Below, piece after piece: positions 1 through 4,586 of a stretch of 64,000 bases of DNA. How positions within the stretch are numbered: the stretch's first letter is position 1; each line of letters opens with the position of its first letter. The stretch comes from a virus, in the IMG/VR virus record IMGVR_UViG_3300010885_049871, positions 1 to 64,000 of that record; one strand, written 5' to 3'. Both the position numbers and the translations under genes were made by a program. The notes beneath the pieces are model-generated. The model had not been told where the DNA came from and made no database searches. It saw only the letters and a program-made list of their open reading frames with translations.

Positions 1-254
1 ATAATGAGATTGTAGTTTCCTACGCGGAGGCGGTTGACCGGTACCCCCTACTCAAGCTTCACATATCAACGGAACCCTAGTAACCCGATCAAGATCCAAG
101 TCCTATAAGCAGGGGTTGTATCTGTTTCACAGAGCCCCGACCATTTGTTGCCTTAAGTTAGCAATTGCCTTTGACGTCCAAGTCCAGACCGGGTATCTCA
201 CCGTTCTTCAATGGAGCCGAATCAAACATTCGGCACAGTGTCGTTTGTGTTGCC
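1..254 (-). ncRNA. Candidate structured non-coding RNA downstream of the GIY-YIG gene (3' part runs off the window)
   Basis: No ORF >=60 aa. Minus-strand hairpins: GCCGAAT-N5-ATTCGGC (216-234); TCTGT-GAA-ACAGA (121-133) inside GGGG/CCCC (112-138); GGGGG..CGGT-CA-ACCG-CCTCC (26-48, G-U pair favours - strand); GTAG-GAAA-CTAC GNRA tetraloop (12-23). Family not recognised. Confidence 0.55.
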
Positions 255-683
255 TTAAATTTTGTTTATAATGTGTGAGCCGTGAACTCTAACTGAGATC
301 TGGCCATTGTAATAATCTGTGGATTCTAATACCTTGCGATTGAACTGTTCTCTAGCTTCAATGTAACTGCATTGTGCTTTTGATGTGCAATAGTAAAGTA
401 TCTCTCTGGTGAAGTTTTCGGTGCCTAAGGTGTTGACATCAACAGTTAGATTTTCGCTTGAACCGTAGTACTCGCGCCAATCACTGTCAATTTTGGTTCT
501 AATTTTCTTTTTTTTCTTGATGCCGTTTTTTTGCTTGACTGTTTTGTAAGTGGTTTTTGAAAATTTAGCTAGTTTTTTGCCTATGTACTTGCGACCAGAA
601 AGATTATTGGTGATCAGGTAAACAAATCCTATGCATTCTTCTGGCAGTGTCTCAACTGGAGTGTTTTGATAAAGCCATGTCAT
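255..683 (-). CDS. Small GIY-YIG family endonuclease (Seg-like)
   Basis: GFVYLITN..GRKYIGKK (GIY/YIG), downstream YYGSS and FTREIL...YIEAREQ...YYN; Lys-rich insertion KQKNGIKKKKKIR. Confidence 0.8.
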   Translation of the reverse strand: MTWLYQNTPVETLPEECIGFVYLITNNLSGRKYIGKKLAKFSKTTYKTVKQKNGIKKKKKIRTKIDSDWREYYGSSENLTVDVNTLGTENFTREILYYCTSKAQCSYIEAREQFNRKVLESTDYYNGQISVRVHGSHIINKI

Positions 684-763
684 GCGGAATCTGTTGTATT
701 ACCTTTGCTGTATAGTTATGCCTTAAAGTGTTTTAGTGTATATTTTGATGACAATTGAAAATT

Positions 764-2527
764 TTATGCTAACTCAACATCTGTGTTATAGCTAGTAAAG
801 CCGTTTTCTTTTACCACTTTGAGAATATTCTCAACGCGGCCAGCCAGTTCGTCTCTATGACTCACTAGCCAAATACTCTTGTGACGTTCTCGACTCATGT
901 GTTTGAGCAAGGCCAAACTGTTTTCAACACCTTGTGTGTCCATTCCAGAATCAATCATCTCGTCAATGAACAACACATTAATTGGTTGATACAAACTTTC
1001 ATACACATCACGGAATGCCCAACTCATACTGAGTATGAGCCTGTTGCGTTCACCGCGGCTTAGATTATCAAAGTCCAGCTCACGCCCCAATTCTTCAATA
1101 CTCACGCTCAAGTCATTCTGGAACACCACTGTGTGCGGCAATCCAATACGATCAAGATAGTGCGTGAGTCGTGTATTCAAGTAGCTTAAATTTTGCTCAA
1201 TGATTTTTTTACGAATAAAACTGTCTTTGCTGGTCAACAGCTTTAACAAAAACTCTTGATGTTCTTGCAGTCGTGTAAATTCATTCACAGTGTCGTAACT
1301 GACTTCTTGCAGAGCTTGAGCTTGCATTTCTTCAATTTGTTCGTCATACGGATCAGCTTCGGCAGATCTTGTGGCCAGACTTTTTTGCAAACTGTCTACA
1401 GAATTTTTATGATTCAGTGCATCTTCCAGTGTGTCATAAAACACCGTGGGTGCCTTGCCCAACTCGCCAAGTTCTTTCAACGTGGTTTGATGCTCTGTAC
1501 GCTGATTGTCATTGGTCAACAGTTGCAGCGCCGCTTCCTGCAACGAATTTTGTTTGCCCGAGCGAATTTCATCTTGCTTGGTGTCGTGAATGTCGGAGCC
1601 GCAGGCATAGCACTTGTGATTGTCCAAGGATGCAATTTCTTCAGTCAACTTGGTTTTGGTCTTGATCAGTTTGACATCGTCCGCGTCAATACTGCGTAGC
1701 CATCTGGTGGCCTCATCAATTGCGGTCTTGCGCTGATGAAACACTGCCAGTTCTCGATGAGCACTGACTTCTAGATCAGTGTTGATGTGCTCGAGATCTG
1801 CAATGGCCTGTGTGTACTGTGCTACATCTTCTGCTCGTTTGGCATTCCACAGTCGTTGTCGTTTGCGCAGGCTTTCAATCTGTTCTTCAATTCGCTTGTT
1901 GGCCTCTTGCACAGCTCGTATACGGAATTCTTCTTGAGTTAGAGAATCTTTGGTTTCGCGATTGAGTTCTTTGATACGATCTGCTCGCTCACTCAGCATG
2001 GTAATACCCAGCAGTTGTTCAATAATTGTTCGTTGATCGTTGGCTTTCAAACTCAAAAACGGTTCGGTGTAGGTGTTCAACGCCAAAATATGTTTGAACA
2101 TGTCGTGACTAAGTCCAAGGGTGCTTTCAATGGCCTGTTGAGTTTCTCGACTGTCGCCTTGCGCATTGTCTGTGGATTCTTGTTCTTGATTGTTGATATA
2201 AAATCTCAGCACATTGGGTTTGCGCCCACGCTCAATTTTATATTCTTTGCCACCTACACCAAACTCCAGGCTAACCAACATGTTTTTAGCATTGGTTTTA
2301 TTGACCAGGTTGTCTTTGCGGATATTGCTGAGTGCTGTTCCATACAGGCTGTAGCTAAGAGCATTGATGATGGTGGTCTTGCCTGTGCCATTGCGACTGC
2401 CGTCACCACCTAGGTCCAAGTTCTCACCTAACACAAGTGTAAGATCTTTTCGATCAAAATCAATGGCCTGAGTGCTGTTGCCCACACTCATGAAGTTTTT
2501 CACGGTTAAATTTCGTATATGGATCAT
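764..2527 (-). CDS. gp46: Recombination endonuclease ATPase subunit, T4 gp46 / Rad50 / SbcC family
   Basis: Walker A NGTGKTT, coiled coil with zinc hook CYAC, signature LSRGE, Walker B LFIDE, H-loop VSH; adjacent to gp47. Confidence 0.95.
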   Translation of the reverse strand: MIHIRNLTVKNFMSVGNSTQAIDFDRKDLTLVLGENLDLGGDGSRNGTGKTTIINALSYSLYGTALSNIRKDNLVNKTNAKNMLVSLEFGVGGKEYKIERGRKPNVLRFYINNQEQESTDNAQGDSRETQQAIESTLGLSHDMFKHILALNTYTEPFLSLKANDQRTIIEQLLGITMLSERADRIKELNRETKDSLTQEEFRIRAVQEANKRIEEQIESLRKRQRLWNAKRAEDVAQYTQAIADLEHINTDLEVSAHRELAVFHQRKTAIDEATRWLRSIDADDVKLIKTKTKLTEEIASLDNHKCYACGSDIHDTKQDEIRSGKQNSLQEAALQLLTNDNQRTEHQTTLKELGELGKAPTVFYDTLEDALNHKNSVDSLQKSLATRSAEADPYDEQIEEMQAQALQEVSYDTVNEFTRLQEHQEFLLKLLTSKDSFIRKKIIEQNLSYLNTRLTHYLDRIGLPHTVVFQNDLSVSIEELGRELDFDNLSRGERNRLILSMSWAFRDVYESLYQPINVLFIDEMIDSGMDTQGVENSLALLKHMSRERHKSIWLVSHRDELAGRVENILKVVKENGFTSYNTDVELA

Positions 2528-3537
2528 AAATTTTGATAAATCTTCAGCAACAATTTGTTGTCGTAAAATTCACTTTCGATGTTGGTCAGCTGGTCGGTTA
2601 CAATTTGATCCACACTTTCAAATTTTACTTCGCCTGGCGCCATATCAGCATCTACTGCACTGCTCTTTACATTGATCAGGGCCATTTCTCTTAGATTGTA
2701 ATCTCGAACAAATGTTTCTTTGATAAAGTTTGCTTCTTCGTAACTGATGTCAATGTCCAATTCCACACGCACATGCATGTTGGCGGCCAACAGTTTAGGT
2801 GCTTGATCAATCACATTGCTCAATTTCATCACACGGTACAAGGGCTGCCCGGGCCATGCATGATATTCTGGCTCTTGTCCCCAGTTCAACACCATCATAC
2901 CACGGGCACTGTCTCCGGCATCGGCAAAATTGTGCGGAAAGCAGTTGCCGATGTAGTTGATATTTTTTTTCTGTTGTCGTAAATGAAAGTGTCCCGAAAA
3001 CACACTATCAAATCCACCAAAGCTTTCTACTTTGACTTCGCCGTGATCCGGCATTTCGACCATGGCATTCATTTTAAAGTGTGGAAGTTCAAAGTGGCCG
3101 AACATGTACTTAGCCGTCATTTTTGGAATGCGTTTGTGATCATCGCCCACCAGCCACGGAGCAATGATCACATCACCTTGTTGGAACCAGTCGTTGCATA
3201 CCACAATGTTTGGCAAATGACGAGCCCATTCGACGCCGTGTATGTTGCGCCGGTCGCGATAGTACAGGTCGTGATTGCCGGGAATAAAATAAAACTGTTC
3301 AAATGCTGCGGACAGCTTTTCCAAACTGCGCAGACTGAAGTTCAGTGTTTGTAAATTGATACTGGCTCGGTGATGGTGCCAGTCGCCCAGAAACATTCCA
3401 GTTTCACAACCTTGCTCCTGTGCAGTTTCGATAAACCAATCGATAAACTGTTCACAGTCTTGATTGTGAACCAGGCTATTGGATTTGAGTCCAAAATGTA
3501 TGTCTGTGCAAACAGCAACTTTTTTAAATAGATTCAT
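2524..3537 (-). CDS. gp47: Recombination endonuclease nuclease subunit, T4 gp47 / Mre11 / SbcD family
   Basis: Metallophosphoesterase motifs DIHFG, GDWHH, GNHD, GHFE, SGHFH. Start moved to ATG at 3537 (MNLFKK); the ORF track extends to 3582. Confidence 0.93.
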   Translation of the reverse strand: MNLFKKVAVCTDIHFGLKSNSLVHNQDCEQFIDWFIETAQEQGCETGMFLGDWHHHRASINLQTLNFSLRSLEKLSAAFEQFYFIPGNHDLYYRDRRNIHGVEWARHLPNIVVCNDWFQQGDVIIAPWLVGDDHKRIPKMTAKYMFGHFELPHFKMNAMVEMPDHGEVKVESFGGFDSVFSGHFHLRQQKKNINYIGNCFPHNFADAGDSARGMMVLNWGQEPEYHAWPGQPLYRVMKLSNVIDQAPKLLAANMHVRVELDIDISYEEANFIKETFVRDYNLREMALINVKSSAVDADMAPGEVKFESVDQIVTDQLTNIESEFYDNKLLLKIYQNL

Positions 3538-3544
3538 ATCAGCT

Positions 3545-3574
3545 ATTGTAACACATGCCTGTAGGCATGTGCAA
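3545..3574 (-). promoter_or_regulatory. Sigma70-type promoter for gp47 containing an operator-like palindrome
   Basis: Minus strand TTGCAC-N18-TACAAT with extended TGn; perfect inverted repeat CACATGCCT-gt-AGGCATGTG (3552-3571); ATG 7 nt after the -10. Confidence 0.5.
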
Positions 3575-3596
3575 TCGGGCATTCAGCCAAACTAGA

Positions 3597-4586
3597 TTAT
3601 TCGACTGTGGTTGATTCAGCCGCGGGCTCCACAGCTGGTCGATCAACAATGTAAGTGGTGATGGTAACAGGACCACTCAGTTGCGCCATACTGGGCCGAC
3701 CAGCATTTTGTCTTGTCCACGACGGGCTTAGTCCATTGATTTCCAAAATGTCATCGCGAATGTTTTGACTCTTCTTTTCCAAATTCAAGATGCGAGTAAA
3801 GCTATTGGTAATGGCAGCAGTGTAGTAGGCAAATGGATTTTGACTTTTGCTTTCGTCAAACTGTAGTCCAATTTGACTCAGTTGCAACAGAGCCTGGCCG
3901 CGCATTTCTTCGTTGTAGGTGTAGCCGCGCCAGTTTGATCTGGTGGCATAGCGTTCACACAGCTTCATAAACATGTGTGCAAGTTTGCGTGTCATGTCGC
4001 CATGATCCTTGGAAAACTCTCCGGTTTCAAGATTGCCTTTCCAATGACTACGGCCCACAAGATATTTTTCTTTGGCATCATTTAGTCGCCAGTGTTCAAA
4101 TGGTGGAAAGTTCAGTCGCTGCCGAACCGGATTCAACAGCACATCATCCAACAACTCGTCCAAGGAATCATCAATGGGCTCGTCTTCAAATTGCAGTAGA
4201 TCTTCTAGTTTTTGTTTTTTCTTTTGTTCTGATTTTGGAATTTTTTTCTCTGCCATTGGAATATGATCCCAGCAGCTGATACGAAACACCAAATCAGTAT
4301 TGGGGATTTTCACAGGGTCGACTATAGTGCCGGTTCGTTTGAGACGGTCAGCACGATTTCTGCGAGCTTCGGCAATGGTACGCTGATTGATCTTGTCCAA
4401 GCTGGGCAGAATAATGTCGTATTGACTGTCTGCATCGGGATTGACATAGTAGCAGTAGGTGTTTTTGCTAGCGTGAATTTCTTTTAAAATGTCTCTGTTG
4501 TTGAGATAATTTACTTTTGGTGCTATCGGAGTCGATGATATTGATTTGGTAGAATCCAAGTTGGATATAGTGCGTTTTGTTGCCAC
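3597..4586 (-). CDS. gp55: T4 gp55-like sigma factor for late transcription, with N-terminal extension
   Basis: NYLNNRDIL near N-terminus; NWRGYTYNEEM..ALLQ...FDESKSQNPFAYYT..I.NSF.R.LN.EKK gp55 core; gp55-47-46 synteny as in T4-like phages; GTG start after GAGGAG. Confidence 0.88.
   Translation of the reverse strand: MATKRTISNLDSTKSISSTPIAPKVNYLNNRDILKEIHASKNTYCYYVNPDADSQYDIILPSLDKINQRTIAEARRNRADRLKRTGTIVDPVKIPNTDLVFRISCWDHIPMAEKKIPKSEQKKKQKLEDLLQFEDEPIDDSLDELLDDVLLNPVRQRLNFPPFEHWRLNDAKEKYLVGRSHWKGNLETGEFSKDHGDMTRKLAHMFMKLCERYATRSNWRGYTYNEEMRGQALLQLSQIGLQFDESKSQNPFAYYTAAITNSFTRILNLEKKSQNIRDDILEINGLSPSWTRQNAGRPSMAQLSGPVTITTYIVDRPAVEPAAESTTVE

What the first reader, a model, noticed from the sequence alone, without database searches (positions are those of the whole stretch)
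1..683. Hairpin-dense putative ncRNA directly downstream of a minimal GIY-YIG nuclease: possible nuclease-RNA (RNP) system
Seen: in an otherwise almost gap-free genome, at least 254 nt after the GIY-YIG stop are non-coding. On the gene's strand they show several stems: GCCGAAT/ATTCGGC, a TCTGT-GAA-ACAGA stem nested in GGGG/CCCC, GGGGG..CGGT/ACCG..CCTCC with a G-U pair, and a GTAG-GAAA-CTAC GNRA hairpin. A 9-mer (GGACTTGGA, at 95-103 and 177-185) and a 7-mer (AAGGCAA) are each repeated. Known: large ornate RNAs sit beside nuclease genes in HEARO/OMEGA systems and in phage group I introns. Inference: a co-transcribed structured RNA that partners the nuclease (scaffold, guide or antitoxin), or a structured replication/packaging signal. 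I do not recognise the family.
Basis: partly seen in the sequence, partly recalled or inferred. Interest (0 to 1): 0.8.

Follow-up and report, generated by a model that had tools for sequence, protein, structure and literature searches.

The report
Truncated twin-box phage RNA beside nuclease gene
The gene-free stretch is the first two-thirds of a real, knotted, roughly 400-base non-coding RNA common in uncultured lake phages; it sits behind a small DNA-cutting enzyme gene but shows no sign of needing or guiding that enzyme, and its job is unknown.

Summary
Window 1-254 (- strand) has stops in all six frames and holds the 5' ~245 nt of a conserved, ~400-nt structured RNA. The contig end cuts it off.

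**The RNA is real.**
- On 29 full-length relatives, 45 of 81 pairs show compensatory changes (0 of 500 shuffles reach this).
- A pseudoknot is supported.

**Family.** Rfam has no match to the window type. In a sister clade the 5' domain is Polynucleobacter-1 (RF01718), and the 3' domain is shared with the window type.

**Twin boxes.** The 3' domain lies beyond the window. It carries two direct 7-nt boxes that vary between phages but stay identical to each other. No partner was found.

**Nuclease link.**
- Of 153 loci with enough flank, 138 have the GIY-YIG gene upstream, 11 have a PD-(D/E)XK (PF24608) gene instead, and none has both.
- The GIY-YIG family occurs in 496 cultured-phage records, and five genomes tested lack the RNA.

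I read this as an independent RNA gene at the end of the gp47-gp46-nuclease module, not a guide. This scan found the same RNA before on other DNA.

The parts
255..683 (-). Gene for a 142-aa GIY-YIG-domain-only protein (stop codon TAA at 255-257).
   Evidence: PF19835, E 3e-32. phrog_447. G19, Y22, Y33, G35, E109 and N126 are invariant in 34 homologues.
1..244 (-). The 5' ~245 nt of the twin-box-family RNA. Conserved sequence starts near 244. The contig end at position 1 cuts the RNA off. About 150-160 nt are missing: both boxes, the conserved hairpin, UGAC and the 3' module.
   Evidence: Alignments A1 and A2. nhmmer. Covariation.
216..234 (-). Hairpin H1, GCCGAAU-GUUUG-AUUCGGC.
   Evidence: 6 of 7 pairs have changes on both sides.
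177..215 (-). Helix H2 (212-215 with 177-180), enclosing hairpin H3 (201-206 with 187-192). The first GGACUUGGA copy is at 177-185.
   Evidence: H2: 2 of 4 pairs, and H3: 5 of 6 pairs, have changes on both sides.
172..175 (-). GUCA, the 5' strand of a long-range helix. Its partner UGAC lies beyond the contig end.
   Evidence: RNAalifold pairs 93-96 with 387-390. Nearly invariant (two pairs depart in one sequence each, unpaired there), so no covariation speaks for or against it.
112..138 (-). Hairpin GGGG-CUC-UGUG-AAA-CAGA-UACAA-CCCC.
   Evidence: Exact 27-mer in 30 IMG/VR contigs. Outer pairs covary.
74..110 (-). Long hairpin H7, which holds the second GGACUUGGA copy (95-103).
   Evidence: 9 of 14 pairs have changes on both sides.
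33..70 (-). Pseudoknot: GUUGAU (65-70) pairs with GUCAAC (33-38), which lies in the loop of the GGGGGU/GCCUCC hairpin (26-48).
   Evidence: The exact complement of a sequence's own loop 5-mer lies upstream in 37 of 42 sequences. For loop types of other sequences the figure is 4 of 252.
5..54 (-). Helix UGAG (51-54) with CUCA (5-8). It encloses the GGGGGU/GCCUCC hairpin and the GNRA hairpin GUAG-GAAA-CUAC (12-23).
   Evidence: 3 of 4 pairs have changes on both sides. By eye, the helix also holds in sister clades as GAGC/GCUC and GCAAC/GUUGU.
764..3582 (-). gp46-like (SbcC-type, 764-2527) and gp47-like (SbcD-type, 2524-3582) recombination nuclease genes. With the GIY-YIG gene and the RNA they form one same-strand block.
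   Evidence: Pfam AAA_23/SMC_N and Metallophos. Annotated relatives in PA5oct-like phages.

Best explanation
**What it is.** Window 1-244 (- strand) is the truncated 5' part of a gene for a ~400-nt, pseudoknotted, non-coding RNA. This scan calls the family 'twin-box'.

**Relation to Rfam.** It is a variant of the RNA whose sister form starts with the Rfam motif Polynucleobacter-1. The two forms share the 3' domain, and only the sister's 5' domain matches the Rfam model.

**Position.** The RNA is the last element of a same-strand block: gp47, gp46, (variable genes), small nuclease, RNA. It is probably made from that transcript.

**The neighbouring gene.** The GIY-YIG gene is a conserved single-copy phage gene. 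It fills a slot that relatives fill with a PD-(D/E)XK (Hjc-like) endonuclease. I infer that it is a structure-specific DNA nuclease of the recombination module. I infer that it is neither a homing endonuclease nor an RNA-guided enzyme.

**How the RNA works (inference).** I infer that the RNA acts on its own. Its two identical 7-nt boxes would be two recognition sites for one partner that changes together with them. That partner could be an RNA, a DNA or a protein.

**Shown:** the structure, the family, the position, and the coupling of the boxes. **Inferred:** independence from the nuclease, the nuclease's role, and the role of the boxes.
For: **Structure.**
- 97.9% of cells are paired, and 45 of 81 pairs have changes on both sides. 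Shuffles give 24.8 +/- 2.7, and 0 of 500 reach 45. Slid controls give 2-14.
- Pseudoknot: 37 of 42 for a sequence's own loop type, against 4 of 252 for other types.
- The full-length L090 copy folds with z -2.89.

**Spread.**
- 55 of 80 gp46-anchored loci hold the RNA.
- 14 lake-water DNA runs hold the stretch.

**Family.** RF01718 scores 91-122 bits on 6 sister copies. The 3' domain aligns across all clades.

**Boxes.** They are identical in 37 of 42 unique sequences and in 72 of 74 parsed loci, and they take about 12 forms.

**Slot.**
- 138 loci have GIY-YIG upstream, 11 have PF24608, 0 have both and 4 have neither, of 153 evaluable.
- PF24608 is absent from G006 (98% complete), G007 (100%), G008 and G000, and present in G004 beside the RNA.
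- No RusA or RuvC was found, and no EndoVII above its cut-off, in G006, G007, G008, G004 or G005.
- PA5oct has PF24608 next to gp46 and gp47 but no hit to the RNA model.

**Independence.**
- L240 holds the RNA among bacterial-type genes, with no nuclease gene.
- GIY-YIG homologues in Melnitz-3, S-SRM01, phiN3 and ACP17 are followed by little or no gap: 148 nt and 88 nt in Melnitz-3 and S-SRM01, about 28 nt and none in phiN3 and ACP17.
Against: - The RNA stands behind one of two small nuclease genes in 149 of 153 evaluable loci. That is tighter than most synteny and fits a functional tie.
- No function, partner or RNA end is shown.
- Expression rests on assembled contigs of RNA libraries, which may hold DNA.
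- The five cultured phages were tested only with a model of the 3' domain that has 11 pairs, and without an independent positive control.
- The loci were not de-duplicated. Some contigs were fetched twice.
- The nuclease's role as a resolvase analogue is inferred only from absences and position.
- The window itself lacks the boxes, so their presence in this phage is inferred from relatives with 97-99% identical neighbouring proteins.
Confidence: 0.6

Rival explanations
1. Nuclease-RNA system. The RNA is a cofactor, guide, scaffold or antitoxin-like inhibitor of the nuclease encoded just upstream, and the boxes set the specificity.
For: - 149 of 153 evaluable loci have a small nuclease gene upstream on the same strand.
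- The RNA starts about 10-15 nt after the stop codon.
- The protein has no DNA-binding domain.
- The boxes are short, variable and coupled.
- RNA-library contigs bridge gene and RNA.
Against: - Two unrelated folds (GIY-YIG and PD-(D/E)XK) would have to use the same RNA.
- Other genes are inserted between the nuclease gene and the RNA in 11 of 79 loci.
- L240, L183, L087 and L086 have the RNA without either nuclease gene.
- 496 cultured-phage records have the protein, and five genomes tested lack the RNA.
- Boxes differ between phages with near-identical proteins.
- The box complement is not enriched in three genomes, and no orthologous site is shared by all three.
Confidence: 0.12
2. Cis-acting end of the operon. 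The structure is a 3' UTR that stabilises, processes or terminates the gp47-gp46-nuclease transcript, with no role in trans.
For: - It always lies on the gp46 strand, at a point where transcription converges.
- The 3' module ends in a covarying hairpin.
- RNA-library contigs are continuous with the gene.
Against: - About 400 nt with a pseudoknot, long-range helices and invariant loops is far more than known stabilisers need.
- No U-tract terminator follows the last hairpin of L090. The only predicted + strand terminator lies about 100 nt further on.
- In L240 the RNA occurs in a different, bacterial-type context.
- The coupled boxes are not explained.
Confidence: 0.13
3. Homing endonuclease beside its target. 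The GIY-YIG gene is a free-standing selfish endonuclease that cuts the highly conserved RNA gene in phages lacking it, as T4 SegB does in the T4 tRNA gene cluster (PMC2330249; I saw only the abstract in the search listing).
For: - The Pfam family is named after SegE.
- The gene lies directly beside a very conserved RNA gene.
- Some close relatives lack it (L086, L087).
Against: - There is exactly one PF19835 (SegE-type) gene in the near-complete genomes G006 and G007; generic GIY-YIG (PF01541) adds a second gene in G006.
- It is present in 138 of 153 loci, not sporadic.
- It is intact at 142-161 aa in 54 of 56 unique ORFs. The two outliers, 24 and 355 aa, are probably parsing artefacts.
- The catalytic residues are invariant down to 33% identity.
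- It has no DNA-binding domain.
- 488 of 496 cultured-phage records have one place that covers at least 80% of the protein.
- A resolvase-type gene takes its place where it is absent.
Confidence: 0.08
4. A DNA-level signal, such as a replication origin, a packaging site or protein-binding direct repeats, and not an RNA.
For: Two direct repeats that change together could be tandem sites for one DNA-binding protein.
Against: - Compensatory changes that keep G-U pairs on one strand only point to RNA.
- The pseudoknot covaries.
- The stretch is present in RNA libraries.
Confidence: 0.03

Closest known systems
Polynucleobacter-1 RNA motif (Rfam RF01718; Weinberg et al. 2010, PMC2864571, where I saw only the table row)
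   Same: - In sister-clade copies (L029, L024, L005, L046, L052, L010) the 141-nt motif is the 5' domain of the same kind of ~400-nt RNA. It sits right after the GIY-YIG stop codon.
- Their 3' domains align with that of the window type.
- The habitat is fresh water in both (table in the paper).
   Different: - Neither the window nor its close relatives match the RF01718 model.
- The 5' domains look differently built.
- Rfam does not hold the 3' domain with the boxes, the pseudoknot region or the 3' module.
Large ornate phage-associated RNAs GOLLD and ROOL (Rfam; cryo-EM preprint 10.1101/2024.12.08.627333, where I saw only the abstract in the search listing)
   Same: They are large, highly structured, phage-borne RNAs of unknown function, found by comparative genomics.
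   Different: - No Rfam match.
- This RNA is smaller (about 400 nt).
- It is not among tRNA genes here: none was found in the window.
- Nothing is known about whether it forms multimers.
OMEGA/HEARO-type RNA-guided nucleases (IscB or TnpB with omega RNA; recalled, not read here)
   Same: A structured RNA of some hundreds of bases is encoded next to a small nuclease gene.
   Different: - The nuclease folds differ (GIY-YIG or PD-(D/E)XK here).
- No transposon ends were seen.
- The RNA also occurs without the nuclease gene.
- There is no terminal guide segment. The variable parts are two internal 7-nt boxes.
- No Rfam HEARO match.
T4 SegB in the T4 tRNA gene cluster (PMC2330249; abstract seen in the search listing)
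   Same: A GIY-YIG gene lies beside conserved RNA genes in a T4-like phage.
   Different: Here the gene is single-copy, nearly universal in the clade, lacks a DNA-binding domain, and is replaced by a resolvase-type gene where it is absent.
SLX1-type GIY-YIG structure-specific nucleases (PMC9071465; abstract seen in the search listing)
   Same: GIY-YIG enzymes can resolve branched DNA. The phage gene sits where relatives have an Hjc-like PD-(D/E)XK endonuclease.
   Different: - No sequence match to any solved structure.
- The role is inferred from position and from absences only.

Membership tests
Polynucleobacter-1 RNA (RF01718) | A match to the Rfam covariance model at or above its gathering score (37 bits). 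| tested here: not met
   No RF01718 match in window 1-3000 at E up to 10. None in L090, L097, L084, L099 and L093 at E up to 1. Sister copies score 91-122 bits.
Polynucleobacter-1 RNA (RF01718) | Homology of the rest of the RNA with copies that carry the motif. | tested here: met
   The 3' domain aligns across both types (A3). It includes GGUACCGG-CAACCGCCUC, both boxes, the hairpin, UGAC and the 3' module. nhmmer hits on the sister loci cover HMM positions from about 175-201 to about 388-398.
Twin-box RNA family (this scan's working name) | Two identical 7-nt boxes behind ACUC and AUCU, 52-58 nt apart. | not testable with these tools
   The boxes lie beyond the contig end of the window. The closest full-length relatives have them (L090, L082, L105).
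Twin-box RNA family (this scan's working name) | Shared 5' and core helices and the pseudoknot. | tested here: met
   The window row aligns over its whole length. Its pseudoknot strands are present at 65-70 and 33-38.
GIY-YIG nuclease superfamily | GIY and YIG motifs plus the catalytic Glu and Asn. | tested here: met
   PF19835, E 3e-32. G19, Y22, Y33, G35, E109 and N126 are invariant in 34 sequences.
Seg-type free-standing homing endonucleases | A C-terminal DNA-binding domain, and a sporadic, mobile distribution. | tested here: not met
   The protein has 142 aa, and the catalytic-domain profile covers residues 3-129. It is a single PF19835 copy in near-complete genomes. It is present in 138 of 153 loci.
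RNA-guided nuclease systems (OMEGA/HEARO type) | The RNA and the nuclease always occur together, and the RNA has a variable guide matching a target. | tested here: not met
   The RNA occurs with an unrelated nuclease gene in 11 loci and with none in 4. The protein occurs without the RNA in cultured phages. No target complementary to the boxes was found in 3 genomes. That search looked only for exact 7-mers.
Group I intron with an endonuclease ORF | Flanking exons of a host gene, the intron core, and spliced products. | tested here: not met
   No Rfam intron match. gp46 ends before the ORF, and a convergent gene follows the RNA. No joint within the RNA appears in 4 RNA runs.

The most novel reading that the evidence does not exclude
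The twin boxes are a programmable address. The RNA pairs through both identical 7-nt boxes with a nucleic acid that changes with them. Through that pairing it steers or gates whichever small structure-specific nuclease is encoded upstream (GIY-YIG or PD-(D/E)XK). An example would be telling the phage's own DNA or RNA from a competitor's during mixed infection. That would be an RNA-directed nuclease control system with no known counterpart.
Probability: 0.08. Interest if true: 0.9.

Novelty: new variant of a known kind. Interest (0 to 1): 0.55.

Why it matters
- **An orphan motif gets a context.** A catalogued 141-nt Rfam motif turns out to be one alternative front end of a much larger RNA. That RNA is pseudoknotted and abundant in giant T4-like phages of lakes.
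- **The boxes are an unusual evolutionary signal.** Two boxes must stay identical while their sequence is free to change. This points to a recognition event that could be found by experiment.
- **A gene label should change.** A widespread phage gene annotated as 'NAD synthetase' (phrog_447) is a GIY-YIG nuclease. It shares a genomic slot with Hjc-like resolvases. That makes a candidate junction-resolving enzyme testable in cyanophages and their relatives.

Tried and rejected
**Known RNA genes.**
- ARAGORN found no tRNA or tmRNA in the window.
- Rfam, window type: nothing relevant in the window or in five full-length relatives.
- Rfam, further loci: nothing in seven more loci.

**Coding end of a gene outside the window.** Rejected. 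All frames are closed. In L090 the whole RNA lies between the GIY-YIG stop and the stop of a convergent gene.

**Cultured phages.**
- blastn of the full RNA against 50,697 phage records found no match.
- Model R1 of the 3' domain was run on Melnitz-3, S-SRM01, phiN3, ACP17 and PA5oct. The only hit was a 15.9-bit match at E 0.33.
- The same model found nothing in the window's own contig. Only its first ~55 positions are present there, so this says nothing.

**R1 pairing with R2.** The single-sequence fold suggested it. Only 72% of cells are paired, and the G-to-A change at both boxes creates a C-A mismatch. Rejected as the reason for the coupling.

**A partner for the boxes.**
- None inside the RNA, by all-pairs mutual information.
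- No exact reverse complement at a constant place in the loci.
- In genomes G006, G007 and G008 the 7-mer counts were 40, 88 and 24, against 41.5, 45.7 and 35.3 expected. The one site shared by orthologous genes of G006 and G007 is not matched in G008.

**Small ORFs from the AUGs in the boxes.** Rejected by eye: frames and lengths differ between relatives.

**Splicing-out of the stretch between the boxes.** No joint appears there in 4 RNA runs. These are assembled contigs, so rare forms would be missed.

**Host.** The genome-contig scan gave 3 hits, all phage-like contigs binned into MAGs labelled Flavobacteriales and Haliscomenobacter. I draw no host from this.

**Solved structures.** No sequence match for the protein.

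**Literature.**
- 'Polynucleobacter-1' occurs in one held paper, and only as a table row. Supplements are closed and may hold the motif's description.
- Searches for new large phage RNAs and for GIY-YIG resolvases in phages found nothing on this RNA or gene. Both were judged from listings only.

Full report
**Where the window lies.** The window begins at the first base of an 89.5-kb IMG/VR contig that CheckV rates 26% complete. On the - strand the order is:
- a gp47-like gene (3582-2524);
- a gp46-like gene (2527-764);
- a 142-aa ORF (683-255);
- 254 bases with stops in all six frames.

The ORF is a GIY-YIG catalytic domain and little else. It matches PF19835 at E 3e-32 over profile positions 1-123 of 123, and it belongs to phrog_447, which carries the name 'NAD synthetase'. 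It has no sequence match among solved structures.

**Is the non-coding stretch more than chance?**
- Alone, it is not convincing. The 260-nt piece folds with z -1.10 on the gene strand and +0.14 on the other strand.
- Comparison settles it. A 27-mer from window 112-138 has exact matches in 30 IMG/VR contigs.
- An alignment shows a highly conserved element that runs on for about 150-160 nt past the point where the window's contig ends.
- On 29 distinct full-length copies RNAalifold predicts 81 pairs, and 45 have compensatory changes.
- Counting that structure gives 97.9% paired cells. None of 500 shuffles reaches the observed number of covarying pairs (24.8 +/- 2.7), and slid controls give 2-14.
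- Many conserved G-U pairs fix the strand as that of the gene.
- The full-length copy in L090 folds with z -2.89.

**A pseudoknot.** The loop of the GGGGGU/GCCUCC hairpin pairs with GUUGAU upstream.
- 37 of 42 sequences carry the exact complement of their own loop 5-mer upstream.
- For the loop types of other sequences the figure is 4 of 252.
- His other stems are real (one search gives the coordinates).
- His 9-mer repeat is real, but the two copies belong to different helices.
- His 7-mer is at chance level.

**Family.**
- Rfam 15 has no match to the window. It has none to five full-length close relatives, and none to seven further loci.
- Earlier notes of this scan named Polynucleobacter-1 (RF01718) as the closest family, and I tested that. 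In 6 of 12 more distant loci RF01718 matches full-length at 91-122 bits (gathering score 37), directly after the GIY-YIG stop codon.
- Those six copies share the 3' domain with the window type.
- So the catalogued 141-nt motif is the front end of a sister form of the same large RNA. The window type has another front end that the Rfam model does not recognise.
- The only held paper with the motif's name lists it in a table as a candidate from Burkholderiales and fresh water or estuary.

**Twin boxes.** I saw these before reading the earlier notes. The shared 3' domain has two direct repeats: ACUC+7 nt and AUCU+7 nt. They lie 52-58 nt apart, around a conserved hairpin and the UGAC that pairs with GUCA of the 5' domain.
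- The 7-mers are identical to each other in 37 of 42 unique sequences.
- They are also identical in 72 of 74 parsed loci of an independent set.
- They take about 12 forms.
- Phages whose GIY-YIG proteins are 98-100% identical differ at both boxes at once.
- I found no partner. Nothing turned up inside the RNA or in its flanks. Nothing turned up as an orthologous site in three large genomes.
- Pairing of the two boxes with each other does not explain the coupling.
- The window itself ends before the boxes.

**Expression.**
- The stretch is held by 14 lake-water DNA runs and, in part, by 6 RNA runs.
- Contigs of four RNA runs from four studies cover both gene and RNA and bridge their border. They show no joint within the RNA.
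- These are assemblies, and DNA may be present in such libraries, so this is weak support.

**Relation to the nuclease gene.**
- I examined 189 loci: 110, and 79. They were not de-duplicated. 163 hold the RNA.
- Of these, 10 have too little upstream flank to judge.
- Of the other 153, 138 have the GIY-YIG gene upstream on the same strand and 11 have a PF24608 PD-(D/E)XK endonuclease gene. None has both, and 4 have neither.
- In 11 of 79 loci one gene lies between the GIY-YIG gene and the RNA.
- Near-complete genomes G006 and G007 have one PF19835 gene, beside the RNA. A generic GIY-YIG search (PF01541) finds one further gene in G006 and none in G007.
- G006 and G007 have no PF24608, RusA or RuvC, and no EndoVII above its cut-off.
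- G004 lacks PF19835 and has PF24608 beside the RNA.
- PA5oct, a cultured relative by gp46, has PF24608 next to gp46 and gp47 and no match to the RNA model.
- The GIY-YIG family is found in 496 cultured-phage records, of which 339 are Synechococcus phages. In four of them that I inspected, no RNA-sized gap follows the gene.
- One locus, L240, carries the RNA among bacterial-type genes (TctC receptor, oxidoreductase, phosphorylase) with no nuclease gene.

**Reading.**
- The two nuclease families look like alternative fillings of one slot in a recombination module.
- The RNA is the module's last element in this aquatic clade.
- Nothing ties the RNA to one protein.
- The closeness of RNA and nuclease gene (149 of 153) remains striking. 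It keeps a functional tie alive as a minority reading.
- The GIY-YIG protein is intact and conserved down to 33% identity, with invariant catalytic residues. That speaks against a decaying selfish gene.

**Verdict.**
- The RNA is real but cut off in this window.
- It is a new variant of a barely described family.
- Its function, and the reason for the coupled boxes, are unknown.
- The guide or partner idea is not supported.
- The scan has reported the same RNA on other genomes several times.

Noticed in passing
window 255-683 and cultured phage records: The phrog_447 family is annotated 'NAD synthetase' in many GenBank and RefSeq phage records, for example phiN3 gp310 and ACP17 gp020. It is a GIY-YIG nuclease domain, so the name looks like a propagated mislabel.
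   Followed up: partly
L017, L031, L039, L040: The gp46 match spans 2079 bases in these loci instead of about 1760. That suggests an insertion of about 106 residues, perhaps an intein or an extra domain, in the SbcC-like gene of some relatives.
   Followed up: no
L111 7936-10319: The gp46 reading frame appears broken after about 89 residues. A 661-aa ORF with a different start follows. This may be an intein or an inserted mobile gene within gp46.
   Followed up: no
L090 1338-3570; L084, L095, L099, L103: Between gp46 and the GIY-YIG gene, relatives carry one to three genes with CxxxCxxC motifs that look like radical SAM enzymes. They vary in number, which marks a plastic region.
   Followed up: no
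L125, L126: Two large contigs (148 kb and 183 kb) of a MAG labelled Haliscomenobacter carry the phage's gp46, GIY-YIG gene and RNA. They are probably phage contigs binned into a bacterial genome.
   Followed up: partly
window 3597-4586 (-): A 329-aa ORF stands upstream of gp47, where PA5oct has its 'sigma factor for late transcription'. It has no Pfam match at E up to 0.01.
   Followed up: no
L090 about 4326-4335 and 4381-4384, RNA positions 254-263 and 309-312: Each box is preceded, 10-11 nt upstream, by UGAC (GAUGACUG and UUAUGACC). The two boxes may therefore be parts of a duplicated module of about 50 nt. Either UGAC could pair with GUCA of the 5' domain.
   Followed up: no
G006:C1:3280-3543: A second, generic GIY-YIG gene (PF01541, 24.7 bits) lies far from the RNA in the 340-kb relative.
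   Followed up: no
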